In this document: positions 5,296-37,197 of the stretch, in pieces
Position numbering within the stretch: position 1 is the first letter of the stretch
Layout of the letters: each line of letters starts with the position of its first letter
From: Candidatus Campbellbacteria bacterium
GTDB lineage: Bacteria > Patescibacteriota > Minisyncoccia > Phycocordibacterales > GCA-2747955
Assembly: GCA_947311625.1 (NCBI GenBank)
Contig: CAMZKW010000002.1
Span: 19,013 to 83,012, forward strand
Direction: 5' to 3'
DNA: 64,000 bases
Made by a program: the position numbers and the translations under genes
Notes under the pieces: generated by a model
Database searches by the model: none
The model's input: the letters and a program-made list of their open reading frames with translations, nothing else
Told to the model about the DNA's origin: nothing

Positions 5296-5449
5296 AATAT
5301 CTTTTTTTTGAATCTATTGACTCAATGGTAAACTCAAATAAAATTTAAATTTACCATTGAATCAACAATTAAATATAACAAGTGCAGTTTGTATTCCAAC
5401 AAAAAGGTTACCAGAAAGTGAATCACTTTCTTGAAACTTTCTAATGAAA

Positions 5450-8856
<3,407 letters not shown>

Positions 8857-9186
8857 TTTCATCAGAAAATTTCAAAAATATGATTCTCAGTTTTAATAAA
8901 TTAAAACTGAATTAATAAGCCATCTAATCCGAAACCTGTATCAACTAAATAAATTTAATTGATAAGTTCTCTTACTTAAATGTTTATGTTTTTTTACGAG
9001 TAACCTTTTTGTTTTTTTTAACTGTTTTTTTTACTGTATGTAAAAATAATAATTATTTTTTCAAGTGTCCAATATATAAAATATATTATAATTAGACTCA
9101 ATGAAAATACAAATTGTTACCTGTTATATTCAATTGTCAAAGTTCAATACTCCAAATAAGAATTACTTCAAATTTGCAGTGGGAGT

Positions 9187-13622: not shown

Positions 13623-13687
13623 AATTTTCAACAGGCAGGGCCTGTCCTTTTTTAATAAAAAAGGACAGGTCCTGCCTGTTGAAAATT
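13623..13687. repeat. 65-nt near-perfect hairpin (31-bp stem) abutting the RAYT stop codon
   Basis: AATTTTCAAC-AGGCAGGGCCT-GTCCTTTTTT / AAAAAAGGAC-AGGTCCTGCCT-GTTGAAAATT, with one G-T wobble and a 3-nt loop. Each arm also contains its own small palindrome (ACAGG..CCTGT). Confidence 0.85.
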
Positions 13688-14357
13688 ACCTTTCTAATTC
13701 GTTAAATTTTAAGTTATTGAAATCTTGATTATGTTTTTCAGAAAAATATTTTGATTTATTTTTTAAAAATTCTTTATACTCTTTAATCCCACCAATAGTA
13801 TCTAAGATATATTTAATTTCTTTTTGAGAGCAAATTTTATCCCCTTCTTCTTCTCCTAAAAATTCAAATAAAGATGTTTTTACTAAATCTTTTTTTATAT
13901 CATGATTATGATGTTTATAATTTAGATTTATATAAGCGGAAACAATTTCTCTACCCAATTCTCCATCAATATCTTTCGATTTAAATCTTCCTTGAAATAA
14001 AACACCGCTTCTTTCATATTTTTTATTAAAATATTTTGTATAAGAATTTGATATTTTAGACATAAATTTAGAAATACCATTTTCAACCTTCTGTTTTAGA
14101 ATAAAATGAAAATGATTTGGGAGTAAAGAGTAAGCAATAATTTCAACAAGTTTTTCATTATCTTTTTTATTTTCTTTTAAGATTCTTCTTTTTTTATTTC
14201 TTTCATTTGAATTCAAAGCCTCAACGGAATTAGCAATTTGAATTGCATCAAAAAAATAATACAAATCCCCCTTATCTTGAAAAATTATTCTTTTATCTAC
14301 ACCTCGATTATAAATGTGATAATATTTATTACTATAAAATTCTCTTTTTGTTGCCAT
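13686..14357 (-). CDS. IS200/IS605-like Y1 (HUH) transposase of the REP-associated (RAYT) type
   Basis: 223-aa intact ORF. YHIYNRGVDKRIIF, HUH motif LLPNHFHFILKQ and GVLFQGRFKSKDI are typical of COG1943/Y1_Tnp proteins. It is a single gene with no tnpB and is bracketed by hairpins at 13623-13687 and 14384-14448. Confidence 0.75.
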   Translation of the reverse strand: MATKREFYSNKYYHIYNRGVDKRIIFQDKGDLYYFFDAIQIANSVEALNSNERNKKRRILKENKKDNEKLVEIIAYSLLPNHFHFILKQKVENGISKFMSKISNSYTKYFNKKYERSGVLFQGRFKSKDIDGELGREIVSAYINLNYKHHNHDIKKDLVKTSLFEFLGEEEGDKICSQKEIKYILDTIGGIKEYKEFLKNKSKYFSEKHNQDFNNLKFNELER

Positions 14358-14383: not shown

Positions 14384-14448
14384 AATTTTCAACACCTTGA
14401 AGGTGTCCTTTTTATTTTAAAAAGGACACCTTCAAGGTGTTGAAAATT
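14384..14448. repeat. 65-nt perfect hairpin (30-bp stem) upstream of the RAYT gene, overlapping the stop codon of the tail-fibre-like gene
   Basis: AATTTTCAAC-ACCTTGAAGGT-GTCCTTTTT / AAAAAGGAC-ACCTTCAAGGT-GTTGAAAATT. The outer and inner stem segments match those of 13623-13687, while the 11-nt core is different and is compensated on both arms. Confidence 0.85.
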
Positions 14449-16336
14449 ATTTTTCTAATTTTTCTAATCTTCTTTCTAAATCGTTTAACCTTTTTTCCTG
14501 TTCCTTAATCTTTTTATCTTGTTCTTGTAAAAGATTTATCATTGGCACTGCTAATTTTGGATAATCAACAGCTAAAATTCCTTTATCATCTTTCTTTACA
14601 AATTCTGGGAAATATTTTTGAACTTCTTGGGCAATAATACCCACATCAGCTTTTCCATCTTTCTTTCAATTAAATCTTACAGCATTGATTTTTAAAATAT
14701 CTCTGTAATTTTCTAATTTTTTAATATTTTTCTTTAATCTTCTATCTGAATTATATACAAAAGAATCTGCTTTTACATTTCCATTAACTTGTAATTTTTC
14801 TCCTGGTGAAGTTGTTCCAATTCCGACATTATTAGACATATAAACATTTCCACCTGTAATATCTAATCTTGAAGCATTGTCTAAATGCAAATCAACTGTT
14901 GAAGAACCATTACCATAACCTAAATAAAAACCTCTCTTTCCATCATCCCTTCTTCCTTCAAAAATTCCATAATGATTATTGACTGTTGATTGAGCAGTAT
15001 GTCAATACCCGTCACCATTTATCATAGTTCTTCCATCAACTTGAAAACCACCATCTGCTCTTAGCATTTTATTTATATAAACATCCTTATTTCCAAAAGA
15101 TCTAATTCAAGTATTATCAGACATATTTCATCCACCACCATGATCTTGGAAATATAATCCATTACTCCCTTTTGTTCTAATTCATCCTGTGCTTTGGATA
15201 TCACCTATAACATCAAGTTTTTGAGATGGTGAAGTTGTTCCGATTCCGACATTACCACTAAAATAACTTTTATCAGAATAAATATTTAAATAAGTTAAAT
15301 TACCACCACCATAATTATATAAATTTAAATTACCCTTTCCTCCATTGGGGTGACCCGCACCTATAAATGTTCTCCCATCTGAATATTGAAAAAATGCACT
15401 GGCACTTCAATCAGAACTTGGGTTATCACTAAAAATATATTGTCCTTTTATATCTCCTGATACATCCAACTTCGCTGTTGGTGAAGTTGTTCCAATTCCA
15501 ACTTTACCATCTGTATAAACTGCATCAGCGGTACTTGTTCCATCAACAAATTTTCCACCTTTAAATAAAGAACCATTTTTGTATAGATCCCCTGAGAAAC
15601 TTATATTTCCATTTACATCCAACTTCGCTGTTGGTGAAGTTGTTCCGATTCCAACGTTACCATCTATATAAACTGCATCAGCGATATTTGTTCCATCGAC
15701 GAATTTACCTCCAAAATCAAGAAGAACCCCTGATTTATATAAATCTCCTGAGAAATTAATATCCCCTAAAACATCTAATTTTTTAGTTGGTGAAGTTGTT
15801 CCGATTCCCACTCTCTTTGTCCCCATATCAATAGTCATATTAAAATCATAACCATTAGCTAACCTATCTTTATCATAACCAAAGAAACCAAAATCATCAC
15901 CAAGACCACCAAGGTTAATAACATGTCCACTTGATGTTTTTTGCCTAATTAATGAATGATATCCACTAGTTGTTAACTGCGTTGACGATGTTATACCACC
16001 TGTTCCAGTTTTACCAGCAATTCACATACTTCCTGGAGCTGTAACTTTTAAATTACCATTAACATCCAATTTCGCTGATGGTGAAGTTGTTCCAATTCCA
16101 ACTTTAGAAGAACCAGAAGCATTACCTTGAAGTAGAATATCTGTTCCCACAAGTAAATTCTTCACACCGATACTACCATCTTTTGTTTGGGTTGATGTAG
16201 ATGTGTTTATGGGCGCTGAAACATTATTATTTGGAGCTGTCCCCGTAGGACCAACTCAGTTTTCGGCCATAGTTATACCTGCAAAAGTTGCCAAAACTGA
16301 AACCAAGATTATACTTATTATATTTTTTGTATTCAT
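14447..16336 (-). CDS. Secreted tail-fibre-like protein (629 aa) with repeated VGIGTTSPxxKLDV motifs and a C-terminal peptidase-S74-type intramolecular chaperone domain
   Basis: ATG at 16336 and a signal-like N-terminus (IISIILVSVLATFAGITMA). There are six copies of (V/R)GIGTTSP(S/T/G)xKL(D/Q)V. The C-terminus NSDRRLKKNIKKLENYRDILKINAVRFN[TGA]KKDGKADVGIIAQEVQKYFPEFV...AVDYPKLAVPMINLLQEQ plus a coiled coil matches the endosialidase/tail-fibre chaperone domain. I translated 15409-14888 by hand: only TGA interruptions. Confidence 0.8.
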
Positions 16337-16457
16337 ATTATTTTTGTTAGTTGCGAAGTTAAAAATAGGGAGCGAATGCGACCATATTTTTTTGAGCAAC
16401 GGATTATTTTTAATAACTTTATTTTAGCAAAAAAAGAAAAAAAAGAAAAGGGAAAAA

Positions 16458-16949
16458 TTAGTCGATTATTTCTCTATAGGGATCAACTATTCTTTCTTCT
16501 GCTTTTTTAACTATCACCTTATTAAATTTATCTTTAAATGATAGATTATCATCAGCTCTTTTTTCTATATCATCAATTAACTTTACAACTTCTTTATCAT
16601 CAACTTCTTTTTCTAAATTATCTATAAGTGCATGGCCTTCATCACTTACAACAATTTCTCTCACTTTTTTAAAAATTAATTCATCAACTTTTTTTGATAT
16701 TGTTGTAGCATTAGAATGACTAACTTGTAACTCTTCTTCTACGACTTTTACAAAATTATTTATAGAAATAATATTTAATAATGTTAATCCAACTATCCTA
16801 ATTAAATTATCTATTTTATCAATTCTTAAATTCAAATCTTTACCAATTTCACCACAACTATTCGCTACTCACACATCATCTAATATATCTCTTATATTAG
16901 CTGAACTTTTTTCATATGCTTTTTCTATTTCTTCCACTGTATATTCCAT
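16458..16949 (-). CDS. Acidic, probably helical 163-aa protein (hypothetical)
   Basis: ATG at 16949 (MEYTVEEIEKAYEK...). One TGA. It sits between the giant ORF and the tail-fibre-like gene on the same strand. Confidence 0.45.
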
Positions 16950-16989
16950 ACTTCCATTATAACAAATTTAAAAATAAAAAAATAGATTT

Positions 16990-19900
16990 TTAATCTACTT
17001 TTTCAGTATTAATATTAACAACGGTTGTATCTTTCTCTCTCGTATATAAGACAGAATCATTTTTTCATTTCTTATATTTTTCACTATCTTTATCAAAATC
17101 AATATAATAAAGAATATCAATCTTTGTTTTTTCAGTTAATCTTTTTCCCAGAGCGTTATTATCTTTAATAATATCGAAATATAATCAACCGCCACTAATT
17201 GGAACATATTTAGAAATAATATCTTCTCCAAAAACAACCCCCATATTATTTATTCCTGGTTCTAATTCATCCCCAATATCTCCCGTATAATCTGTAATAT
17301 TTACTAAAGCTGTTTTTTCATTTTCAAATAATTCTTTTAAAGAAGAATATTTTTCATCATTTTCAGGTTTTAAAACATCTACATATTTTAAAGATTTAAC
17401 ATCTTTATGGTTTACTTTCTCCCCAAAAGTCAAATGCATTCTATATAAGTAATTCTTATATTTATCATCAGTGCCTTTAAACAGTAAAGCAACTTTTTTA
17501 GCAAATGGAGGTATATAAACCTTATATGATTCTCATGATTTTCCATCTGATTCTACAGTTGTCTTATATTGTCCCTGTCCTTTTATACCATTGACAACAT
17601 TATCTCCCAATCCATCTGGATAAACAGCATAATGGTCCACGGATAAATTATAAGTATCATAGCTATATCAATCAAAATTACTTTGTTTATCGGGGTTGTA
17701 ATCAGTATGCTTTTCTACAGAACTAACATATGGCAAATAATATTTTCCCGTTTCTACATCCTTTTGACGATCTCTATCTAAAATAATTTCTGAACTTGAA
17801 ATAAAGAAATCTTTTCAATTATCAGTATTTGCATCGGGAGAAGCAGAAGGTGTATCTTCGGTCAAAATACTATTATATAGTTTATCAATATCTACTATAT
17901 TCATATCATTATCTGAACTAGAAGTATTAAAGTTTGTTGCTGTATAATTATAATCTTCTATAAGTTCATTTATCTCATAAGTCTTATTATTATCTAAAAT
18001 TAAAATATTTTCATAATCAAAGGCAAGAGATGCAATTCCATATCAACTTAAAGAATCTTCTATTTCCCCTTCTGTTACTCCAATAATTCCTCCATCATAA
18101 TCCCTTTTCGTTAATTCACCTCTACTTTTATTAAATTGTGTTAAATATATTTCAGCAGAAATCAAACCTCCTTTTTTTATTGGTTTTTCTAACGAGTAAT
18201 CAGTAATATGTCCATTTATAGTTTTTTCCATTTTTCTTGATTTAGACATATATATACCGAAAGCATCTCCTATCTTAGATGGCTCAAGAGCCCCCTCACC
18301 TTCAAAAATGGCAGATAAATCTTTTTGACTCTTTGCTTCTTCGATTAATTTAACTGCAGCTTCAGCTTTTTTCTTTCTTTCGGAGACATTCTTTAAACTC
18401 TTCTCTGCACTAGACATCCCCTTTACTGCTTGTTCATACTTACTTTCAATTTTTGAAATTACCGAATCCATAGTATCTTTTGTCAAGACAGAATATTTTG
18501 GATCATCTTCTGATTGTCGTCATTTTTTAGAATCTGATTCTAAATCATTTTTTCTTATGATTCACTTATCCTTTAGATCTAAAATGTAATTCAAAAATCT
18601 CTTATGTACTTCTACATTTTCTTTTCTAATTTTTTCTTCTATTACGAATGCTTCTGGATTATACATTTTTAATAATGATAATTTCTCAACATCTATATTT
18701 TTATCTTTTTCTTCCAAATCACTAGAATCAACACCTGCTAATCCCCCCTCAAAAGCATTAAATATTTTTTCCATTAATTGTGTTACCAAGGCACTTATTA
18801 ATTCATCAAACTCATCGGCTAAAAGCAAGTTTTCATTCTCCATACCTAGAACATCAGATACCTGATCTGAAATTACCTTACCCGGTGTAACATATTTACA
18901 TTTTTTCTTTCCCAAAGAAGAACTGGCACAACTTTTTGCACTTCTATTACAGGATTTTTTTGCAGAATCAGTTGTCGCTAATTTTAAACAATTCTTTAAT
19001 TTCTCTGCGCAAATTTTATTAGAAGATTTTTGTGAATATGTACCACTTTTTTCTCCTTCACATTTCTCAATGGACATAAATCCTTCACCTCTTTGAATAT
19101 CTTCTTTTTTATCAGCATTTTTTTTATCTATTGCTTTTTCTAAATCAGAAGATAATTTTATATAAGATCCATAAACATTATTATTTGAATTTGTTGTTTT
19201 CTTTAAAAAAGTATTTCAATATTTATTTGTATCAACCTTTCCATCACTAGTATAAAAATTTTTCACATCACCGAGGGCATTTTTTATATTTTGTTCTGCA
19301 CTAGAAAGTGTACACTCTGGAGCTTTAACATCTTCTGTTTTTAGTTTGCTTCCTTTTCCATAAAATTTCAAATTGATAGCAAATTTTAATGGTATTTTAA
19401 AATTTGAACATAAAAATTTAGTACTTTCACTATGAGAAATTATATCTCCTACAAATTTGTCAGTAGCATCTTGTAAAAACTGATTTGGATCAGAAATAAA
19501 AGTTGGCTTCCCTTCAAACCCCCCCTTTACTCATTCTGTGGTACTTTTCAAAATTCCATGAATTAAAGAATTTTTTAATTGATTTGCAGCATAGTCAAGA
19601 CCGCACTCTTTTGCTTGTCCTGCCCCATTAACCATTTTACTTCCAATATTGTTTACAGGGACTGATGCAATGTCAATTGCTTGAGCGGGGCCGGAAAATA
19701 TCGCACCCTGAGCAAAACAAACAGCGAATCCTATCGTAGCATTTTTTAAGATAGATCCTCAATCAATACCCGTATCATCATTGTTATAATCTTCTTGTCC
19801 ACCACTAATAGTTATGGAAAACTCTTTTATAAAATCAAATTTCCCGTCATTAACCCTAACCTTTACATTATACTGACCGTTAACAACACCTTCCTCATCT

Positions 19901-20535
19901 TTAACAATAAGTTTATCTTTTGATATTAAAAATGGTTGCATTACTTGAGCAACATCTGCAGTATTGTTATTCCCATCACCGCTGGTAGCTGTTGTATTAT
20001 CATCACCTAAGGTGTTACTAGGTTCACTTTCTTCATCTTTCACAATATTATATGTATAGACCCCATCTTCCCCATCATCTTCAACAATAAAATTACCAAC
20101 AATCCTATCTATGTCTTTCGACAAATCCACCTTTGTGGAGGTAATTTTTAAGTTTTTAACTTTTTCATTCAAATCATTAACATTTATATTTAGTATTTTT
20201 TCTTTATTAGTTGATTTTTCTATTACTTTTATTGAATAAATGCTTACTCTTTCAAAATCTATACTTGGAGTATTAACAATTAAATCTTTTTTATCTTTTA
20301 TTTTAAATCTGAAATTATCTACGAAACCATCTTCTAAAACAAACTCAGCTCCTACATTTCCCATATCTGAAAAAGTTCCGATTTTTGTCCCATTCTCAAC
20401 ATTTTCATTAACTGAATTATTATCTAATACAATACCATTATCAACATCTTCAGCGTATATAAAACCTGTAAAAATACCTGTAAATAACAATAAGGCAAAG
20501 AACAAAGATTTTTTTTTTTTAATTTTTTTTTTCAT
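16990..20535 (-). CDS. Giant secreted or surface protein (1181 aa). It has an N-terminal signal, cadherin-like repeat region, a hydrophobic segment, a Cys-rich region and a long uncharacterised C-terminal part.
   Basis: The four listed ORF pieces (19759-20535, 18562-19077, 18043-18486, 17185-17439) share one frame. I translated every gap by hand and found only TGA codons. The stop is TAA at 16992-16990. The N-terminus is KKKSLFFALLLFTGIFTGFIYA. Cadherin-like blocks include ENGTKIGTFSD...FRFKIKDKKDLIVNTPSIDFERVSIYSIKV. Confidence 0.8.
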
Positions 20536-20539
20536 ATTT

Positions 20540-21451
20540 TTATTTAATTTTTGATATTAAATTCAATAAAGAACTATAAAATATTGAATCTATTTCTTTA
20601 TAAACACCTAAAGCGATAACGAGAGATACTGGGTCTTTATCCACCTTGGAGTAATAATTCATAACTTCTATTTCTGCATTATAGGAATTAAGGTATTTTA
20701 AATAAATATCTGCCAAACTATCTGGAACCTCTATATTTTTTAATTCATCGAGATACTTTTTATGAATTTTTAAATTCTTTTCTATTTGAACTAAATATTT
20801 TGGATCTTTTCCTTCATTAAGATATTTATTTAGTAAAATAACCTCTTCTATTAATTTTTCATCCTTTAGTAGTTGTCACTTCCCCATCAGATCTTGTTTA
20901 AATTCTTTTCTATTGACATCTTTAATATTAAGATCTTTTTTACTAAATTTAGTCAAATCTATATCCACCTGACTCTCACCTATAATGGAATCTACTAGCT
21001 GATCTCTATTTCCTTTATTCAAACTCATATTAGAATTTTTTAATTTAACGCCTTCCTCTAAAAATCTATAAGTCACTCTGTCGGTATTTGTTAAATTAGG
21101 GTCGAATCTATAATCATAATTTAAGTGATCTATATTTTTAACAAGATCAATCTTCTTTTTTGCTTTATTTAAAGGGTCTAGAGGGTCACTTCCAGTTTTT
21201 ACTTCTAAAGCATCGGAAAATCCATCTCCATCAGTATCTTTTTTTGTTTTATCTGTTCCTGCTAATTCCTCTTCTCAATCTTCAAGACCATCCCCATCAG
21301 TATCAATTTTTTTGTTAATAATATCTGAAAATAAATCATTATTTTTTGATGTATTAAAAAAATTATTAAATACAAAATATAATATTATTGTGACTATCGG
21401 AATTATTAATATAGCAACAACTTTTTTACTCGGTAAATATTCTTTTCACAT
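20540..21451 (-). CDS. Membrane-anchored protein with thrombospondin-type-3-like Ca-binding repeats (303 aa)
   Basis: ATG at 21451 and a TM anchor (VVAILIIPIVTIILYFVF). DTDGDGLED[TGA]EEELAGTDKTKKDTDGDGFSDALEVKTGSDPLDP is a TSP3-like repeat. TAA stop at 20542-20540, 4 nt before the giant ORF start. Confidence 0.7.
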
Positions 21452-22343: not shown

Positions 22344-24596
22344 ATGTTATTAGAAACTCCAATCTTAGAAACTGGTAGATTTACAGAGCATCAAAAAAAA
22401 GCACTGAAAAAACTAAAAATAGAAACTGTTGAAGATTTACTTTATCATTTCCCTGTTAGATATGGAGATTTCAACGAATTTACTTATATAAAAAATTTAA
22501 AATCTGGAGAACATGCCATTATCTACGGAAAAATTAAATCCATATCTGCAAAAAAAACCTTTAAAACAGGGTTGGCGATTACCGAGGCAATTCTAGAAGA
22601 ATCGACTGGAGATAATATAAAACTCATCTGGTTTTCCCAACCATATATTTCTAAAATTTTATCAACTGGTAGTTCAGCAAGATTTTCTGGAATAATTTCT
22701 GAAAGAAGTGGTAAATTATATATGACAAACCCAGAATTTGATGAAGTTGGAAAAAAAATACCATTAGAAAAAAGCGGTTCTCTTTTTGAGACCAACTCAT
22801 CGGAAGAATCACAAATTATCTTTCCAGTTTATAAAGAATCAAAAGGTATAACTTCAAAATGAATTTTTCATAAAATTAAAAAAATATTATCTGATAAAGA
22901 ATTTTTAGAAAAAACTAAAGATCCTATACCAAAAAATATTTTAAAAAAATACAATCTACCATCTTTTATATCTTCACTTATTTTTATTCATCTTCCTAAA
23001 AAAAAATCTGACTATCAATCTGCAAAAAAAAGATTTTCCTATGAAGAAATATTTTATATTCAACTCGTGAGAGGGATTGAAAAAAAAGAATATTCAAAAT
23101 CTGGGGCATATATTTTTGAACCAACAAAAATTAAAGAAGATAAAATAAAAAAGCAACTAGGATTTGAATTAACTTCGGCACAGAAAAAAGTTATGGAATC
23201 TATAAAAAAAGATTTAAAATCTAATATTCCAATGTCTAGGCTTTTGGAGGGAGATGTAGGTTCTGGAAAAACTGTCATAGCGGCTTTAACATCTTATTTT
23301 GCCGCAAGCACAAAACCAAAGGGGCAAAATTTTGGTCATAGCCAGGTTGCCTATATGGCTCCTACGGAAATTTTAGCAAAACAAATATTTTCTGAATTTA
23401 AAAAAATATTGGGACCTTTGGGTATATCTTTAGGATTATTAACTTCTAAAGATGTCAGAAAATTTCCATCAAAAATTTCCAATGAAGAAACTAAAATTTC
23501 TAAAAAAAAACTTTTGGACTGAATCTTAAATGGAGAAATACAAATAACAATTGGGACCCATGCTCTTATTTCAAAAAATGTTTTTTTTGAAAATCTTGGA
23601 TTAATTATAATTGATGAGCAACATAGGTTTGGTAAAAAGCAAAGAGCAACTCTGAGACAAAAATCTCAAGAGAAAAAAGATTCAGAAAAAATTCAGAAAA
23701 ATAAATCAAAAAAGATTCAGAAAAAAGGCCTCGTGGAAAATGATAATATACTCCCCCACATGCTATCTATGACGGCAACGCCAATACCAAGAACACTAGC
23801 CCTTACTATCTATGGAGATTTAGATATATCTGTTATGGACGAACTCCCCCCTGGGAGAAAAAAAATAGATACACAGGTTTATATAGATAATGAGGGGGAA
23901 AGAAAAAAAGTTTATTTTGAAGTTGAAAAAGAGCTAAAAAAAGAAAGGCAAATGTATGTAATCTGTCCTAGAATAGATGATCCAGACCCCGATAAAAAGA
24001 TGTCTTTAAATTTAAAGTCTGCTGTTTCTACCCAAAAACATTTTCAAAAACATCCATTGTTTAAAAAATACAATATAGGGCTCCTTCATTCAAAATTAAG
24101 TAAAGATGAAAAAAATAAAGTTATGGAGGATTTTGAAAAAGGAAAAATTGATATTTTAGTCTCCACTTCTGTGGTTGAAGTTGGAGTTTCAGTCGCAAAT
24201 GCTACGGTTATGATTATTGAAGGTGGAGAAAGATTTGGGTTATCACAGCTTCATCAATTTAGAGGTCGTGTTATGCGTTCCTCTCATCAACCATATTGTT
24301 ATATTTTTGCAAATACAAAAAATGAAAAATCCCTGGAAAGACTCTCGGCTTTAAAAAAAAGCTCCAATGGTTTTGAATTAGCAGAATATGATTTAAAATT
24401 CAGAGGGTCTGGAGAGATAATGGGAAATAAACAATCTGGAATATCTGATTTAGCCATGGAGGCAATATCTAATATAAAATTAGTTGAACTTGCGAGGAAT
24501 GAGGCTCAAAATTTAATAGAGGGTGATAAATGAAAAAAAGAAAAAAAAGTTGTTTTAAAATTAGAAAAAATTTCCAGAAAAGTTCATATGGAATAA
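22344..24596 (+). CDS. recG: ATP-dependent DNA helicase RecG
   Basis: Wedge-domain N-terminus, Walker A (GDVGSGKTVIAAL), DEQHRFG, and helicase motifs SMTATPIPRTL, VEVGVSVANATVMII and QLHQFRGRVMRS. Three pieces are in one frame joined at TGAs. It continues past TGA 24531 to TAA 24594. Confidence 0.93.
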
Positions 24597-25320: not shown

Positions 25321-28086
25321 TTAACTATCAACACTTTCCGTATTAACAGATCTTGGAATATTATCTTTAGTTGGGTGTCTATTTTCTCTACCAGCAGCAA
25401 TATCCTCCAACCCTTCTTTTTCTTGTTGTTTATTTGCTTCAATTTTAGAATCAATTTTTTTCTTTGCTCCTTCGTAATCTTCTCTAACAGATTCAATCTC
25501 TTTATTCGCTTTAGCTTTAATTTCTGACATTCCAACCTCAGCCATCTCTTTAAATACTTTAGTAATTCTTTTAACATTAGAAGAATTCTGAATATCTTTA
25601 ATCTGATCATTAGTTAATTTAATCTGTTTTTCTAACAATCCAGCTTGTTTTTCGTCACCCTTTTTCAGAGCTTCCTTCAAACTTAATCTTTGTCCTTCTA
25701 TCTCATCTGTTAAAACATTAATAGTATTCATAGCTTTATTATATTCACTAACACCTTCTATTTTATTTGCTATTTTTTGAATTTCTGGAGCAATCCTGTT
25801 GTCAGTTTTTAGTTGTTCAATTAATGGATTAATATCAACAGATCCATTTTTCTTTAATATCTGACTCAAATCTAATTGTCCATTGTGATCTTTGTCTCAC
25901 ATTTTATTTCCTTTGGTAATCAAATTTTTAATATCAATTAAAGTTCCTTGAGTTTTTACAAACTCTTTTACTGGGTGCATATCTTTGTCTCTCTTAATTT
26001 CAACCTCTTGTTTCTTTTCTTGATACTTTTTAAACTCTTCTTTTTTATCAAGATCATAATCTTTTCTTTCTCCTTTTGATCGAGAAATAATCTTCTCTTT
26101 TTCTGCTAATTGTCTATTAGCTTCAATATTTTCATAAAATGGTAATTTAGCTCCCGCACCTCCGATAGCGGCCCCTGCTGCAGCTCCTATAGGACCAGCA
26201 ACGACACCACCTATAGCAGCTCCTACAGCAGCCCCAGAGCCATGTGATAAAAGTGAATTCATAACACTATTTTTTATTGATTTTTCATTCAAATAACCAA
26301 CATTATTTGTCAGATATTCTGCTTTTTTTACCGATCTTTTTTCATTCCATTTATTTTTTTTGTATTTCTGCTTATCTCCATCTGACAATTCTTGATATTT
26401 TTTATCTTTTTCCAAATCTTTTTCTATATCTTTAATGTCTTCTGGTGTAAGAGCAGCAAGGTTTTTATAAGCTTCATTCATTTTTTCATCTTTAAAAGGC
26501 TTAAAATGTTTTATATTTCCATCCGTATCTTTTTTATCTTTGTTAAAGTTAGTGCTAATATCTTGTGACCTCTTTAAAGTTCTTTCTTCCTTTGATAATC
26601 TTGCTTTTAACGACTCATCTTCTTTTCTTGCTCTTTCCACCTCTTCACTAAAAGACTGGCCAAATATTTTCTTTTCATAAAGAGAATCTTCACCTCTATG
26701 AGCAAGCTTAGCCCCATAATCTTTTATATGTTTAATTCCTCATGTATTCGCCCCTCATCCTTTTGGATTGTAAAGTGCCTTACCTATTCTCCCCGTTACT
26801 CTACTTCCAACACCAAGAGCCCCTCTTGCAGTTGTTCCCGTAAAAGTTTTCGCCGCTAATTTTGCTACACCAAACCCACTGGCAAAAGAAGCAACTTTTC
26901 CAAAAGTTCCAACTATACCTTTTCCTAAATCTCCATTTTCACACTGCTTTGATGAGTATTCTGTCAACATATTTAAAGCCTTATAAACGATGTAGGTTTT
27001 TATAAATAAAATAGTGATTAATTTTAATATGGTATCATCGGCTACACCATTTAATATAGTATTCATAGTTTCACTCGATAGAAAAGCTAATAATACTCAA
27101 ATACCCAATAGATAAGAAGTCATACAAAAAGCTTTTCCCGATATATCTCCTGCCCATTTATATAAATGTTGCCCACCGCCGGGTAAAAAATATAAAGCAA
27201 AATATGCCGGAGCTGTTATGATTAATTTTATTAGATGTATTGTTCTTGATACAAAATTAAAAGATCCTTTAAGGAGAGCTATAGACATCATTACCATAGT
27301 AATTATAAAAACTATATTCAATATAATTAGAGATTTTTTTATATAAATATCTTCAAGATTTTTATCTTTGATTTTTTCCTTAAAAGCTTTTTCACTATAA
27401 ATGTGATCTGGGTTAACAAAAAATATAAGAGCACTAGCTATGGATCTGTTTCCAAAATAAGGTTCTCAGTCTTTATTTTTTCCTAAAACAGCCTTAGAAA
27501 CTATCCATCTATCTACTAAACCTTCAACTTTTAAGTCATCTTTTGTAGCATCTCCTCTTTTTTCTGCTTCTTTTCCAGTTTTTACCGATGACATTGTATA
27601 AAATATAGCTGTGGTAAAATTACCAGCATCAATTATGACTCTAGCAAAAAACATAGAAAAATTCATTACAAAAGCAATTATAATTAAATGTCCCAGCATT
27701 GTTTTTCACTGGGTTCTACCAATGATCATAAAAATACCAATTATAATAATTCCAAAAATAAAAGCAATATTTGCCACATCTCTTATTATGGCCCAGCCTA
27801 ACTTTACCCAATCTGCATTATATAAATTAGTATAAATACTTATAGTTAATAAATTATCAAAGATGACACCTGTAATATAAACAAGATAGCTTGAAAGGTC
27901 TTTGAATACTCCTGTGATAAATATTATCACAGATAAAAATCCACTATAAACCATATCACCTAAACCAGCAAATACAAATAACGAAGGAAAAAATAAAAAT
28001 AAAGAAAATATTAAAACAAACTTTTTTGGATTTTTCCTCAAGTTAATTTTTAAAAAATTTGATATTTTTTTGATAGAATTATTCAT
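25321..28086 (-). CDS. 921-aa polytopic membrane protein. It has about 10 N-terminal TM helices, a Gly/Ala-zipper segment and a long Lys/Glu coiled-coil C-terminus.
   Basis: Six listed pieces (27706-28158, 27466-27699, 27097-27321, 26755-27066, 25897-26640, 25321-25869) share one frame. I translated all gaps by hand and found only TGA codons. The likely start is ATG 28086 (MNNSIKK), after the hairpin at 28137-28161. The Gly-zipper is GSGAAVGAAIGGVVAGPIGAAAGAAIGGAGA. Confidence 0.75.
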
Positions 28087-34400: not shown

Positions 34401-36929
34401 TTAATAGGTAATTATTTCTTTTTTATTTTCAAAATAAATTTTTCCCATTTCATCACCATTTTTTAAATTAAAAACCCTATCTTTTTCATTGGAAATTGTA
34501 TGAATTACATCTCCTATTCTTAATGCTCGTTTTGCTTTTTCCTCTCACCCTTTTTCACTTTCTAAAAGAGAAATCTTTGAAATATTATTTTTTTCTAAAT
34601 TTAACAATATAACTCCTGTTTTATTATCTCTATAGTACAAGTTATCTGATTTACTTTTTTGATATAGAGTAACGGGGAAAGCCATAATATTTTTATTTTC
34701 AGAAATTAAAATTGCTTTATGGTTATTTAGAGCTTCTGAATAAGAATTATTACCACCTAAAACTATTGACTTTATTTCTCTAGGATTATCTCGAGAAATA
34801 TCAAAGAGAGTAACTTTTAAACCTCCATTTCTCTGATTACCATATTTATCTACATAAACATCCCTACCCAATCCAATCAATCTATCCTTAAAAACTGGAT
34901 GTAAATATTGTGAAAATCCATCTATCTTTAATTCCCCCAATAATTTTAACCTTTTTGGATTTGAAATATTAATATTAAATAAAGGGTCTGTTTGTTTAAA
35001 TGTAACCAAATATGCATGGTCTTTTACAAATCTAACTGATTTTATTCTTTCGCCTTTTGCTATTCCTTCAATTGAATCAAGATTTTTTAAATTTTTATCT
35101 AAAGAATATAAATTATTTTCAGATTTATTTACAGAAAAATTATTACCAATAAATCCTCTTAATTGTCATGGTAATCAATTCTCATTTTTAGTAGTTGCTA
35201 TAAAAAAGTTTTTATCACTATCTTCATGCATTGAAAATTGATTGAGTGTCAAACCTGAAACCTCTCCACTTGCTGTAGCTAAAATTTTTCCGTCATTCAA
35301 AGAAAATTTTTCAATTTTTGTTTTTTCAAAATTATCTTTATTTTTTATATAAAATTCTTTAACTACAACTTTTAATTCTTTTTTAAAATCTTCATCAATT
35401 TTATTTTTCTTACTTAATAGATTTTTTAAATTTTTGTCTTTTTCTTTTTGAGTATATTTTCTCACCGAACTATTTACAACAGATGAATTAAAGTTTTTGT
35501 CAATAATAATTTCTACCTCGTCAATTTCTGAATCATCAATAGTATATTCAATTTTACCATTACTTAAAATTTTTATATTTTCATTATCAAGTTTTTTTTC
35601 TCTATCCAAAAGTAAAGATGAAACTTTTTCATCTAATTTTTCATAAATTATATTTGTATTTATAAATTTATTATAAGTTAGATATAAATTATCTTTAGAT
35701 ATATAAATACTTCCTAAATTTGGCATTAAAATTCTTTTTGATGATATTTTAGATAAATCATCTAAATTTAAAGATGTAATTGAAGTTAAATTTTTATTAA
35801 TAAATGGTGTATCAATATAATAAAAACTATTCCCAAAATTATTTGTTGAAATTTTATTATCAATTCTTACCATTGGTAAAATAGAAATATTATCATTAAT
35901 TCATTTATTACTTACAAAGTATAAATGGTTTTTTATAATCCTGCTTTCTTTTAAAGAACCTTCAAAATCAACCTTTTTTACTTTGACAGGCCTCTTTGGG
36001 TCTGATATATCATAAACTTCAACTCTAGTAAAATAATCATTTATTATATACGGATGGGCTAATATTCTTTTTTTAAAATTATTGGAATTTTCTCAGTAAT
36101 TAGAAATTAAAATTAATTTATTTTTATGAAGATATATTTCTCTCATTGATTCATTTTTACTTGCATTTATTTTTGATACCACCCTCATACCCTTTGGATT
36201 TAATGCATCAAAGATAAATAATTTTTTTGATTTTGAAATAGTATATATATATTTTCCATCGGTTTTTGAAATATCTGATTCATCAACTCCATCTACCTGA
36301 TTATTTGTTCTTGAAAAATCTGATGAGCTTATTCCTTCCAATGAAATTTTATCTGAACTTCTTAATGAAGTATTTCTTTTTAAATAATTTTGTGGAGCAC
36401 TAATATTTTCTAAAATATTATCCCCTATTCCAAATACCAGATTATCACCAAAAGATAGTTTATTGTAATTTTTTGTTTTTTGAATAAAATCTATTAATGA
36501 TTTCTCGCCATAGGCAACTTTCAAATTTCCAGAAAATTTTTCATTTTTTTCAGAAGTTGATATTTTACTTCCACAAGAATCATTCAATAAAGCTCTAGTT
36601 TTAGGACCAACATAACCATCTTGAGTTGTTCCCAAAAACTTTTGTAATCTTAGAATGGCCCCTCTGGTTTTAGGTCCAATTATTCCATCCACTTTTCCAG
36701 CATTAAAGCCTAGTCTATTTAAATGTTTTTGAAGTATGTGAGCTTCTCTTACAATAGATTTTGTATACCCATTATATTTACCATTTTTGATATATCTTTC
36801 TCCTATTTTTGGAGCTTTTAAGTTTTGATGTAATATTAAATCATTAGAGCAAGAACCTTTTTTTAATTCTTCCGCTGAAACCCCTGTAAATATTAAACTT
36901 AAAATTATTATTTTTATTATTGTTTTCAT
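34401..36929 (-). CDS. Secreted protein (842 aa) with an N-terminal peptidoglycan-binding domain and a beta-propeller domain (COG4880/PF09826-like)
   Basis: The signal is MKTIIKIIILSLIFTGVSA. The PG_binding_1-like repeats are GKVDGIIGPKTRGAILRLQKFLG and DGYVGPKTRALLN. The beta-propeller family block is RTNNQVDGVDESDISKTDGKYIYT. Three pieces are in one frame; I translated both gaps by hand and found TGA only. TAA at 34403-34401. Confidence 0.8.
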
Positions 36930-36936
36930 TTTTTTA

Positions 36937-37197
36937 TTATAGCATTTTATTTTTAGAAAATTTTTCTTCTTCATCTTTAATTTTAGATTTTAAAAATTTA
37001 ATCTGTTCTTCTGTAATATTTTTAAATTTTGCAATTTTAATTAAATGTTTTCTTTTACATTGCTTACAATAGAGAGGCCCTTTCATTCCGTTATATAGAT
37101 GAAAGATTCTAAAATCTCCGGGTTCTATTTCTATGGATGGTGAAAAATCATATACATTACCTTTGTATCCACAACCAGGACAGGTTCTTTTTAACAT
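36937..37197 (-). CDS. Small zinc-ribbon protein (hypothetical)
   Basis: 86-aa intact ORF with CPGC...CKQC. Confidence 0.45.
   Translation of the reverse strand: MLKRTCPGCGYKGNVYDFSPSIEIEPGDFRIFHLYNGMKGPLYCKQCKRKHLIKIAKFKNITEEQIKFLKSKIKDEEEKFSKNKML

What the first reader, a model, noticed from the sequence alone, without database searches (positions are those of the whole stretch)
14447..21451. Co-directional four-gene cluster of large surface proteins: a candidate host- or cell-attachment module
Four minus-strand genes are packed with gaps of 4-120 nt.
- A TM-anchored protein with TSP3 Ca-binding repeats (21451-20540).
- An 1181-aa signal-peptide protein with cadherin-like repeats, a hydrophobic segment and a Cys-rich region (20535-16990). 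Its start is only 4 nt from the upstream stop.
- A 163-aa acidic protein (16949-16458).
- A 629-aa tail-fibre-like protein (16336-14447).

None has an enzymatic motif I can recognise. Together they occupy 7 kb, about 11% of the window, in a genome that otherwise looks streamlined. The cluster ends at the RAYT element. For a reduced, possibly episymbiotic organism this kind of investment suggests an adhesion or host-interaction apparatus. I cannot match the combination to any named system.
Basis: inference. Interest (0 to 1): 0.68.

Follow-up and report, generated by a model that had tools for sequence, protein, structure and literature searches.

The report
Accessory genes of CPR type-IV secretion
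Three of the four genes belong to unnamed protein families that sit in the conserved type IV secretion operon of ultra-small CPR/Patescibacteria bacteria, which is split up in this genome, while the fourth gene is an unrelated tail-fibre-like surface protein.

Summary
The four minus-strand ORFs exist exactly as described, but only when TGA is read as Trp (code 4, not 25).

Genes A (TM + TSP3), B (1181 aa) and C (163 aa) form a real, conserved module. The order TrmH–A–B–C–LepA recurs in four TGA-recoded relatives. In 80 metagenomic loci the same three families sit in a fixed operon: A→B→TrbL/VirB6→C-family→PrgI/VirB3→TrsD-like→VirB4. Counts, where the contig is long enough: A 63/64, VirB6 52/53, C 33/36, VirB4 27/27.

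This is the Patescibacteria T4SS described in 2023–2025. In the text and held supplements I searched, those papers do not mention the A, B or C families.

In the window the operon is split. The VirB6-like gene lies 4 kb upstream (25321–28086). No VirB3, TrsD or VirB4 lies within the 64 kb.

B is not an orphan. Its all-helical core (aa ~265–610) defines a family of more than 3,000 clusters. The family shares an N-terminal TrbJ/DUF4141-like motif, but full-length VirB5 homology could not be shown. C has no signal peptide or TM segment, so it is probably cytoplasmic rather than a surface protein.

D is a Sec-exported tail-fibre-like protein with an S74 chaperone domain. It is absent from all operon loci and from the syntenic relatives, so it is a separate insertion next to the RAYT.

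Verdict: partly supported; moderately interesting.

The parts
20540..21451 (-). Gene A (303 aa). Bitopic membrane protein with an N-terminal anchor (aa 5-34), two Ca-binding TSP3 repeats (aa 50-61 and 72-83) and a ~200-aa helical ectodomain with no known relative. It belongs to the family encoded first in the CPR T4SS operon.
   Evidence: Pfam TSP3_bac E 7e-13. The HMM of the operon's first gene matches the full length, E 7e-45. The family lies directly upstream of B in 63/64 loci. The PDB profile search hits only the Ca-binding region.
16990..20535 (-). Gene B (1181 aa). Secreted multidomain protein, the second gene of the CPR T4SS operon.
   Evidence: 100% identical to NCBI protein P0001. 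The family HMM matches with E 1e-73. The exhaustive phmmer search finds 3,029 related cluster representatives.
19966..20454 (-). B aa 28-190: lineage-specific N-terminal cadherin-like module, placed between the signal peptide and the conserved core.
   Evidence: It matches the repeats of giant proteins that are Pfam Cadherin PF00028 proteins. It is absent from typical family members, and from the close orthologues L081_B and L082_B.
18706..19743 (-). B aa ~265-610: conserved all-alpha core with motifs W-x-x-x-G-F-x-G-x-P-x-F, G-x-G-F-x-S, T-P-G and L-A-D-E, plus four near-invariant Cys.
   Evidence: Alignment A1. AF2 model with pLDDT 69, all helical. No PDB hit by sequence or by fold. 12 of 88 family members hit DUF4141, and a few hit TrbJ models at the N-terminus.
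16993..18705 (-). B aa 611-1181: coiled-coil region plus a C-terminal extension shared only with close relatives. This is the variable, probably target-binding end of the protein.
   Evidence: Only P0137, P0139, P0141, P0142 and P0146 match this region. Other family members carry F5/8 type C, Ig-like or SprB/Big_7 domains instead.
16458..16949 (-). Gene C (163 aa, pI 4.7). No signal peptide or TM segment. It has a ~100-aa helical N-domain, an acidic linker and an invariant C-terminal DPYRE motif. It belongs to the family encoded fourth in the operon, right after VirB6.
   Evidence: The family HMM matches with E 7e-21. DPYRE is invariant in alignment A5. The family is present in 33/36 operon loci. 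No Pfam or PDB relative.
25321..28086 (-). TrbL/VirB6-like polytopic membrane protein (921 aa). It is the third operon member, displaced here about 4 kb upstream of A by RecG (+ strand), TrmH and a 190-aa ORF.
   Evidence: tblastn with the L085/L088 TrbL proteins. The family HMM matches with E 7e-60. The L085 and L088 counterparts carry Pfam TrbL and TrbL_3.
14447..16336 (-). Gene D (629 aa). Sec-exported tail-fibre-like protein with six VGIGTTSPxxKLDVxG(N/D) repeats, a C-terminal Peptidase_S74 intramolecular chaperone (aa 530-581, nt 14594-14749) and a terminal coiled coil. It is not part of the T4SS module.
   Evidence: Pfam S74 E 4e-14 and Shufflon_N E 1e-8. PHROG tail fibres. PDB MYRF ICA 7dc3 and phage S16 fibre 6f45. 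None in the 80 operon loci. Absent at this position in L081-L084.
14390..14442 (.). Inverted doublet of a REP-like hairpin (ACACCTTGAAGGTGTCC) between D and the RAYT. It scores as a bidirectional terminator and ends the D transcript.
13686..14357 (-). RAYT / IS200-like Y1 transposase. A second hairpin doublet follows it at 13631-13679.
   Evidence: Pfam Y1_Tnp E 3e-10. Hairpins.

Best explanation
**Claim.** A, B and C are accessory components of the Patescibacteria (CPR) type IV secretion system, a machine related to monoderm conjugation systems. The neighbouring gene D is an unrelated trimeric surface fibre.

**Shown.**
- The three families are co-encoded, tightly spaced and in a fixed order with VirB6, VirB3/PrgI, a TrsD-like protein and VirB4 across diverse CPR contigs.
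- In this TGA=Trp lineage the operon has been broken. A-B-C sit between TrmH and LepA. VirB6 lies 4 kb upstream. The ATPase module is not within the window.

**Inferred mechanism.**
- A is anchored in the membrane by its N-terminal helix. It presents Ca-stabilised TSP3 repeats and a helical ectodomain outside the cell.
- B is exported by Sec. Its conserved disulfide-containing helical core docks on the VirB6 channel, possibly with A. That would be the position VirB5/TrbJ holds in diderm systems.
- B's lineage-specific modules (here a cadherin-like N-terminal module and a 570-aa C-terminal extension) contact the host or target cell.
- C stays in the cytoplasm. It probably binds the machine through its invariant C-terminal DPYRE peptide, as an adaptor or regulator.
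- D is secreted separately. It trimerises with the help of its self-cleaving S74 chaperone domain and forms an independent fibre.
For: **Local synteny.** TrmH-A-B-C-LepA is found in four relatives, L081-L084.

**Operon statistics.** In 80 metagenomic loci the order is A->B->TrbL->C-family->PrgI->TraC/TrsD-like->VirB4. The counts are 63/64, 52/53, 33/36, 34/35, 32/33 and 27/27. The median gaps are 5 nt (A->B) and 6.5 nt (B->TrbL).

**Named genomes.** The same order occurs in L085 (Ryanbacteria) and L088, where Pfam labels TrbL, PrgI, TraC-like and P-loop_TraG are on record.

**Window proteins match the family HMMs.** A scores 7e-45, B 1e-73, TrbL 7e-60 and C 7e-21.

**Topology.** A has a TM anchor and B has a signal peptide. 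C has neither.

**Core of B.** It has four near-invariant Cys. The domains attached to it vary across the family: F5/8 type C, Ig-like, SprB and cadherin.

**VirB5 lead.** DUF4141 hits 12 of 88 family members and TrbJ models hit 4 of 88. The best plasmid matches fall on trbJ, DUF4141 and a VirB5-position gene, all lying between VirB4 and VirB6.

**Literature.** A CPR T4SS exists, mostly lacks a relaxase, and is essential for epibiosis in Southlakia (PMC12102498, PMC10633639, PMC12857230).

**D as a separate fibre.**
Against: - No VirB4, PrgI or TrsD-like gene lies in the 64-kb window. Whether this genome still has a complete T4SS is unknown.
- In this lineage A-B-C are not adjacent to VirB6.
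- The similarity to VirB5/TrbJ covers only about 27 columns (hhalign probability 22%), and the window's own B matches that motif poorly.
- Foldseek finds no VirB5-like or any other fold. The model has low pTM, 0.35.
- The roles proposed for A and C rest only on topology and gene position.
- The 80 loci were chosen by similarity to typical B cores, so they may over-represent one operon type. Moranbacteria loci L086/L087 have an A homologue followed by a short 354-aa protein with B-like motifs, and no adjacent T4SS genes.
Confidence: 0.72

Rival explanations
1. A-B-C work as a stand-alone surface adhesion module in this lineage. After the operon broke up, the ATPase part of the T4SS was lost or became irrelevant. 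A and B were kept, and B was enlarged, purely as adhesins.
For: VirB4, PrgI and TrsD are absent from the window. The TrmH-A-B-C-LepA arrangement is conserved in four relatives without other T4SS genes on those 11-16 kb contigs. B has gained a cadherin-like module and a long C-terminal extension. L086/L087 show an A homologue followed by a short B-like protein, with no adjacent T4SS genes.
Against: An intact 921-aa VirB6-like gene is kept only 4 kb away. Cytoplasmic C, which makes little sense for a pure adhesin, is retained with its invariant DPYRE motif. Only 64 kb of a larger genome was visible. The literature notes that T4SS genes can be dispersed (PMC12102498).
Confidence: 0.18
2. One reading: all four genes, including the fibre D, form one dedicated host-attachment apparatus that matches no named system.
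For: The genes are co-directional and closely spaced. No terminator-like site lies between A and D, and a strong one follows D. A, B and D have export signals.
Against: D is missing from the same position in all four syntenic relatives and from all 80 operon loci. A 121-nt AT-rich spacer with a promoter-like site precedes D. A, B and C do match a named system. C is not exported.
Confidence: 0.06
3. D and the RAYT are remnants of a prophage or mobile element, and the whole region is a recently acquired island rather than a cellular system.
For: D matches many phage tail-fibre PHROGs. A RAYT with REP-like hairpins is adjacent. D-like genes and RAYTs recur upstream of LepA in several other Paceibacteria.
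Against: No other phage gene is nearby. D carries a Sec signal peptide. GC content is uniform across the region. A, B and C are vertically conserved at this locus in relatives. The hairpin doublets bracket only the RAYT, not D.
Confidence: 0.04

Closest known systems
Patescibacteria/CPR type IV secretion system (MPF-FATA-like; Quinonero-Coronel et al. 2025, PMC12102498; Wang et al. 2023, PMC10633639)
   Same: The A, B and C families are encoded in one tightly packed operon with VirB6, VirB3/PrgI, a TrsD-like protein and VirB4. The window has the VirB6-like member. In L085 and L088 the chromosomal context includes KsgA, as that paper reports near virB4.
   Different: Those papers list VirB1/2/3/4/6/8, TrsD, PrgF and T4CP, and state that no adhesins were found. 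I found no mention of the A, B or C families in the text or in the held supplements. In the window the operon is split and the ATPase module is not visible. The Southlakia locus has pilins and an NTF2-like protein, and nothing there is annotated like A or B.
VirB5 / TrbJ / Bacteroidales TraI (DUF4141): secreted helical T4SS subunit encoded next to VirB6
   Same: B is Sec-exported and helical, and is encoded immediately beside VirB6. Many family members share the post-signal-peptide motif V-x-D-x-x-N-x-x-Q-N with TrbJ and DUF4141.
   Different: The detectable similarity covers only about 27 columns. B cores are roughly 350 aa against roughly 230-260 aa for these proteins. There is no fold match. 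The window's B has a degenerate version of the motif. Published work found no VirB5-like protein in the Gram-positive pCF10 T4SS (10.64898/2025.12.18.695078).
Surface adhesins of Gram-positive conjugation systems (PrgB, PrgC, TraO)
   Same: Exported proteins, encoded with a monoderm-type T4SS, that would mediate cell-cell contact. The adhesin-type domains vary.
   Different: No sequence relationship was detected. A and B have no LPXTG or sortase signal in the sequences read. The CPR survey found no PrgB homologues (PMC12102498).
Phage tail fibres and endosialidases with a C-terminal intramolecular chaperone (Peptidase_S74), and the MYRF ICA domain. This applies to gene D only.
   Same: The S74 domain scores above the Pfam cut-off (53 bits against 22). 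The SDRRLK motif sits at the domain start. A repetitive Gly-rich shaft precedes the domain, and a C-terminal coiled coil follows it.
   Different: D has a Sec signal peptide, no phage neighbours, and a chromosomal location beside housekeeping genes.

Membership tests
Patescibacteria T4SS gene cluster | Genes are homologous to families that are syntenic with virB4 in other Patescibacteria | tested here: met
   The A, B and C families lie in one operon with VirB4 in 27/27 loci that are long enough. The window proteins match those family HMMs at 7e-45, 1e-73 and 7e-21.
Patescibacteria T4SS gene cluster | A VirB6/TrbL-like polytopic membrane protein is present | tested here: met
   Window 25321-28086 (minus strand). 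HMM E 7e-60, plus tblastn hits to the L085/L088 TrbL proteins.
Patescibacteria T4SS gene cluster | The signature VirB4 ATPase is encoded nearby (within about 20 genes) | tested here: not met
   No VirB4 hit anywhere in the 64-kb window by tblastn or HMM. The rest of the genome could not be examined.
Patescibacteria T4SS gene cluster | VirB3/PrgI and TrsD-like (TraC-like) genes are present | tested here: not met
   No hit better than E 0.036 in the window ORFs.
VirB5 / TrbJ family | Signal peptide followed by the conserved V-Y-D-P-x-N-x-x-Q-N type motif | tested here: inconclusive
   Across the B family, DUF4141 hits 12 of 88 members and TrbJ NCBIfam models hit 4 of 88, best E 5e-7. The window's B reads ...SVPVNNIGSKMVNG..., which is a poor match.
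VirB5 / TrbJ family | Homology along the whole protein | tested here: not met
   hhalign of A1 against six TrbJ sequences aligns 27 columns at probability 22%. The PDB profile search gives no VirB5, TraC or TrwJ hit.
VirB5 / TrbJ family | Elongated helical-bundle fold like the solved VirB5 homologues | tested here: inconclusive
   The model is all-alpha, but pTM is 0.35. Foldseek against the PDB gives no match with E below 1.
VirB5 / TrbJ family | Gene adjacent to virB6 | tested here: met
   Met at family level: B is followed by TrbL in 52/53 loci, with a median gap of 6.5 nt. In the window itself the two genes lie 4.8 kb apart.
Bacterial TSP3 repeat proteins (PF18884) | Score above the Pfam gathering threshold | tested here: met
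   A scores 48.6 bits against a cut-off of 25, with two repeats. The DxDxDGxxDxxE motifs lie at aa 50 and 72.
Tail-fibre / endosialidase proteins with an intramolecular chaperone (Peptidase_S74) | C-terminal S74 domain above threshold, with the Ser-Asp-x-Arg-x-Lys start motif | tested here: met
   D scores 53 bits against a cut-off of 22 at aa 530-581. SDRRLK lies at the domain start. PDB matches are MYRF ICA and phage S16 gp37. That this motif marks the cleavage site is from my own knowledge of the family.
Tail-fibre / endosialidase proteins with an intramolecular chaperone (Peptidase_S74) | Encoded within a phage or prophage structural module | tested here: not met
   The neighbours are C, the RAYT and LepA. 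No other ORF in the region has a phage-family hit.

The most novel reading that the evidence does not exclude
The B-core family (more than 3,000 clusters, all unnamed or 'hypothetical') is the long-sought VirB5-equivalent of monoderm-type T4SSs. On this reading it is a secreted helical cap that sits on VirB6 and carries exchangeable host-binding modules. The TSP3 protein A and the cytoplasmic DPYRE protein C would then be two further, undescribed core parts of the machine that CPR bacteria use to engage their hosts. The cadherin-bearing, enlarged B in this TGA-recoded lineage would be a host-specificity determinant.
Probability: 0.25. Interest if true: 0.75.

Novelty: new variant of a known kind. 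Interest (0 to 1): 0.5.

Why it matters
The CPR T4SS is essential for epibiotic growth in the one lineage where it has been tested. What it touches on the host, and which parts of it face outward, are unknown. The published survey found no adhesins.

This analysis shows that a membrane-anchored Ca-binding protein, and a secreted protein with a conserved core and swappable adhesin-type domains, are almost always the first two genes of the operon in many CPR lineages. A cytoplasmic protein with an invariant C-terminal peptide is the fourth gene.

That gives concrete candidates for the host-contact and regulatory parts of the machine. They can be tested by complex prediction, by localisation, and by Tn-seq in cultivable CPR bacteria.

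Tried and rejected
- **Code 25 (TGA=Gly).** Rejected. TGA aligns with invariant Trp columns and never with a conserved Gly column.
- **B as an orphan.** The word-indexed search found only B itself. The exhaustive phmmer search overturned this.
- **Single-sequence AF2 of B.** Unusable, pLDDT 32.
- **Alignment-based model of the B core.** pLDDT 69. Foldseek found nothing in the PDB or BFVD.
- **PDB profile searches.** For the B core, only coiled-coil noise. For A, only the Ca-binding repeats. For C, nothing.
- **LepA-anchored synteny in 80 GTDB species genomes.** None of them has A, B or C beside LepA. The closest LepA is only 69% identical, and that relative (L001) has FtsZ upstream instead. 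Synteny became visible only through the contigs that encode A homologues.
- **The look-up of encoding contigs for P0001.** Not on record.
- **Alignment A1 as a locus-scan query.** Too diverse. The narrower A2 worked.
- **Guessed accessions for RP4, pTiC58 and R388.** Not in the collection. TrbJ sequences were obtained through tblastn hits instead.
- **VirB5/TrbJ membership of B.** Not established.
- **B as a VirB1-like cell-wall hydrolase.** Considered, but nothing supports it: no Pfam or PDB hit and no fold match to any solved structure.
- **REP copies between C and D, as a sign of REP-mediated insertion of D.** None found.


Full report
**1. The observation**

Under the standard bacterial code the region breaks into many short ORFs, and even LepA is split. 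Every interruption is a TGA.

| Gene | Coordinates | Length |
|---|---|---|
| A | 20540-21451 | 303 aa |
| B | 16990-20535 | 1181 aa |
| C | 16458-16949 | 163 aa |
| D | 14447-16336 | 629 aa |

The gaps between them are 4, 40 and 121 nt.

The codon means Trp, not Gly:
- TGA sits at conserved Trp positions of RNase H, iPGM and Tgt.
- Within the families studied here, TGA aligns with invariant Trp columns: B aa 335 has W in 80/80 members, B aa 440 in 78/80, and A aa 59 in 60/63. It never aligns with a conserved Gly column.
- NCBI's own protein for B is identical to the code-4 translation.

LepA neighbours place the organism in Paceibacteria/Parcubacteria.

**2. What each protein is**

*Protein A.* It has one N-terminal hydrophobic anchor, two TSP3 Ca-binding repeats (Pfam E 7e-13), and a ~200-aa helical C-terminal domain that matches nothing in Pfam or the PDB.

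*Protein B.* It has a signal peptide. Its N-terminal module (aa 28-190) matches the cadherin repeats of giant surface proteins.
- B looked like an orphan in the word-indexed search. The exhaustive search found 3,029 related cluster representatives, all sharing its central part, aa ~265-610.
- This core is all-helical in an alignment-based model (pLDDT 69, pTM 0.35).
- It has four near-invariant cysteines and several strict motifs.
- It has no relative in Pfam, the PDB or BFVD. Public sources leave the family unnamed or call it hypothetical.
- Typical members are 450-600 aa. They carry different C-terminal domains: F5/8 type C, Ig-like, SprB.
- The window's B is unusually large. It has both the N-terminal cadherin-like module and a 570-aa C-terminal extension shared only with close relatives.

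*Protein C.* It is acidic (pI 4.7) and has no export signal.

*Protein D.* It has a signal peptide and six VGIGTTSPxxKLDVxG repeats. It has a Peptidase_S74 intramolecular chaperone domain (E 4e-14) and a terminal coiled coil. It matches many phage tail-fibre families, the MYRF chaperone domain and a phage fibre tip.

**3. Synteny**

Anchoring on LepA in 80 species genomes showed none of A, B or C nearby. Those relatives are distant, with LepA at most 69% identical.

The contigs that encode close homologues of A were more informative. All four (L081-L084) show TrmH -> A -> large B-like protein -> C -> LepA. All four also carry in-frame TGAs. D and the RAYT are absent from that position in every one.

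**4. The link to type IV secretion**

Distant A homologues in a Ryanbacteria genome (L085) and in a second NCBI genome assembly, GCA_034680565.1 (L088), are followed by this series:
- a B-like protein
- a TrbL/VirB6 protein
- a 340-399-aa protein
- PrgI (VirB3)
- a TraC-like protein, which by its position between VirB3 and VirB4 I take to be the TrsD of the 2025 survey
- a VirB4-type ATPase

I then collected 80 metagenomic loci that carry a typical B core and labelled their ORFs by iterative profile search. The order is invariant: A -> B -> TrbL -> fourth gene -> PrgI -> TrsD-like -> VirB4. Counting only contigs long enough to show each position:

| Operon member | Present |
|---|---|
| A (upstream of B) | 63/64 |
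| TrbL/VirB6 | 52/53 |
| Fourth gene (C family) | 33/36 |
| PrgI | 34/35 |
| TrsD-like | 32/33 |
| VirB4 | 27/27 |

The median gaps are 5 nt (A->B) and 6.5 nt (B->TrbL).

HMMs built from these loci recognise the window's proteins:
- A at E 7e-45
- B at E 1e-73
- the 921-aa multi-TM protein at 25321-28086 at E 7e-60
- C, as the fourth gene, at E 7e-21

C also shares that family's invariant C-terminal DPYRE motif.

No PrgI, TrsD-like or VirB4 gene is present in the window. So this lineage has a split operon. VirB6 comes first, then a 190-aa ORF, RecG on the opposite strand, TrmH, and then A-B-C.

**5. What is known**

The Patescibacteria T4SS was characterised recently. It is related to monoderm conjugation systems, usually lacks a relaxase, and is essential for epibiotic growth of Southlakia (PMC12102498, PMC10633639, PMC12857230).

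The survey lists VirB1/2/3/4/6/8, TrsD, PrgF and T4CP homologues. It states that no adhesins were detected. I found no mention of a TSP3 protein, a TrbJ/DUF4141-like protein or the C family in its text or in its held supplements. The Southlakia locus has no gene annotated like A or B.

So the system is known. These three conserved components appear to be undescribed, with one caveat: unnamed 'CPR profiles' in that study may include them.

**6. Is B a VirB5?**

Evidence pointing that way:
- 12 of 88 B-family members hit DUF4141 at the N-terminus. A few hit TrbJ models, best E 5e-7.
- A family member searched against 7.3 Gb of plasmids lands on annotated trbJ genes, on Bacteroidales DUF4141 genes, and on the gene in the VirB5 position of a Xanthomonas plasmid virB cluster. 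The E-values are weak. Each of the eight matched genes I inspected follows the VirB4 homologue, and a VirB6 homologue (trbL or traJ) lies just downstream wherever one is annotated. This is the same neighbourhood that B occupies.

Evidence limiting the claim:
- Profile-profile comparison aligns only about 27 columns, namely the signal-peptide end plus the V-x-D-x-x-N-x-x-Q-N motif, at probability 22%.
- The window's B has a degenerate version of the motif.

I therefore treat 'works like VirB5' as a reasoned hypothesis, and 'is a VirB5' as unproven.

**7. Gene D and the RAYT**

D-like genes are absent from all 80 operon loci and from the syntenic relatives. D is preceded by a 121-nt AT-rich spacer with a promoter-like site. 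It is followed by a strong hairpin terminator.

That terminator is half of a REP-like hairpin doublet. A second doublet follows the RAYT. The doublets bracket only the RAYT, and D lies outside them.

D is best read as an independently acquired, Sec-exported trimeric fibre. It may well be an adhesin, but it is not part of the A-B-C module.

**8. Mechanism: shown versus inferred**

Shown:
- family membership
- operon co-encoding
- topology signals
- variable domain architecture
- the split arrangement in this lineage

Inferred:
- A and B form the outward-facing part of the T4SS on VirB6.
- B's variable modules bind the host.
- C acts inside the cell through its C-terminal peptide.

Confidence that A, B and C belong to T4SS-operon families is about 0.9. 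Confidence that they function with the machine is about 0.7. Confidence that B is the VirB5-like cap or adhesin is about 0.3.

The main rival is that in this lineage they act without the ATPase module. That cannot be excluded from a 64-kb window.

**9. Verdict**

Novelty is moderate. This is a new variant, and a set of apparently undescribed components, of a known system.

Noticed in passing
whole window; e.g. TGA codons in B at aa 335 and 440, and in A at aa 59: The genome reads TGA as Trp (code 4), although it is a Paceibacteria/Minisyncoccia CPR bacterium. Relatives L001 and L081-L084 do the same. A May 2026 preprint (gTranslate, 10.64898/2026.05.24.727570) reports the first UGA-to-Trp cases in Patescibacteriota, in class Minisyncoccia (family JAKLIH01 and genus GCA-2747955). 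This window probably belongs to one of those lineages. No tRNA-Trp(UCA) gene lies in the window.
   Followed up: yes
window 13631-13679 and 14390-14442: The RAYT gene (13686-14357) is bracketed by two inverted doublets of REP-like hairpins, ACAGGCAGGRCCTGTCC and ACACCTTGAAGGTGTCC. Each doublet is framed by TTTTCAAC...GTTGAAAA and also scores as a bidirectional terminator. No further copies of either hairpin occur in the 64 kb.
   Followed up: partly
window 5443-8861: The 23S rRNA gene spans 3,419 nt against a 2,925-nt model, so it carries roughly 500 nt of insertions. From my own knowledge of CPR rRNA genes, these may be introns.
   Followed up: no
L082 10804-11778 and L083 10666-11640: In two close relatives a second paralogue of the A family (324 aa) follows gene C, where the window has the fibre gene D.
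   Followed up: no
L019, L031, L037, L044, L049, L058 (within 10 kb upstream of LepA): D-like fibre genes and RAYT genes recur upstream of LepA in several standard-code Paceibacteria. This may be a hotspot, or it may only reflect how common these genes are.
   Followed up: partly
window 34401-36974 (minus strand): A gene for an 857-aa secreted protein with a peptidoglycan-binding domain and a Beta_propel (PF09826) domain, E 9e-123.
   Followed up: no
window 22344-24596 (+ strand): RecG sits between the VirB6-like gene and TrmH-A-B-C. The 2025 survey notes that recG is commonly found near T4SS genes in the ABY1 class.
   Followed up: no
window 19759-19761 (B codon 259): One of B's TGA codons falls exactly at the junction between the added cadherin-like module and the hydrophobic helix that begins the conserved core. 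Under the standard code this would end a 258-aa ORF. It is probably a coincidence in a code-4 genome.
   Followed up: partly
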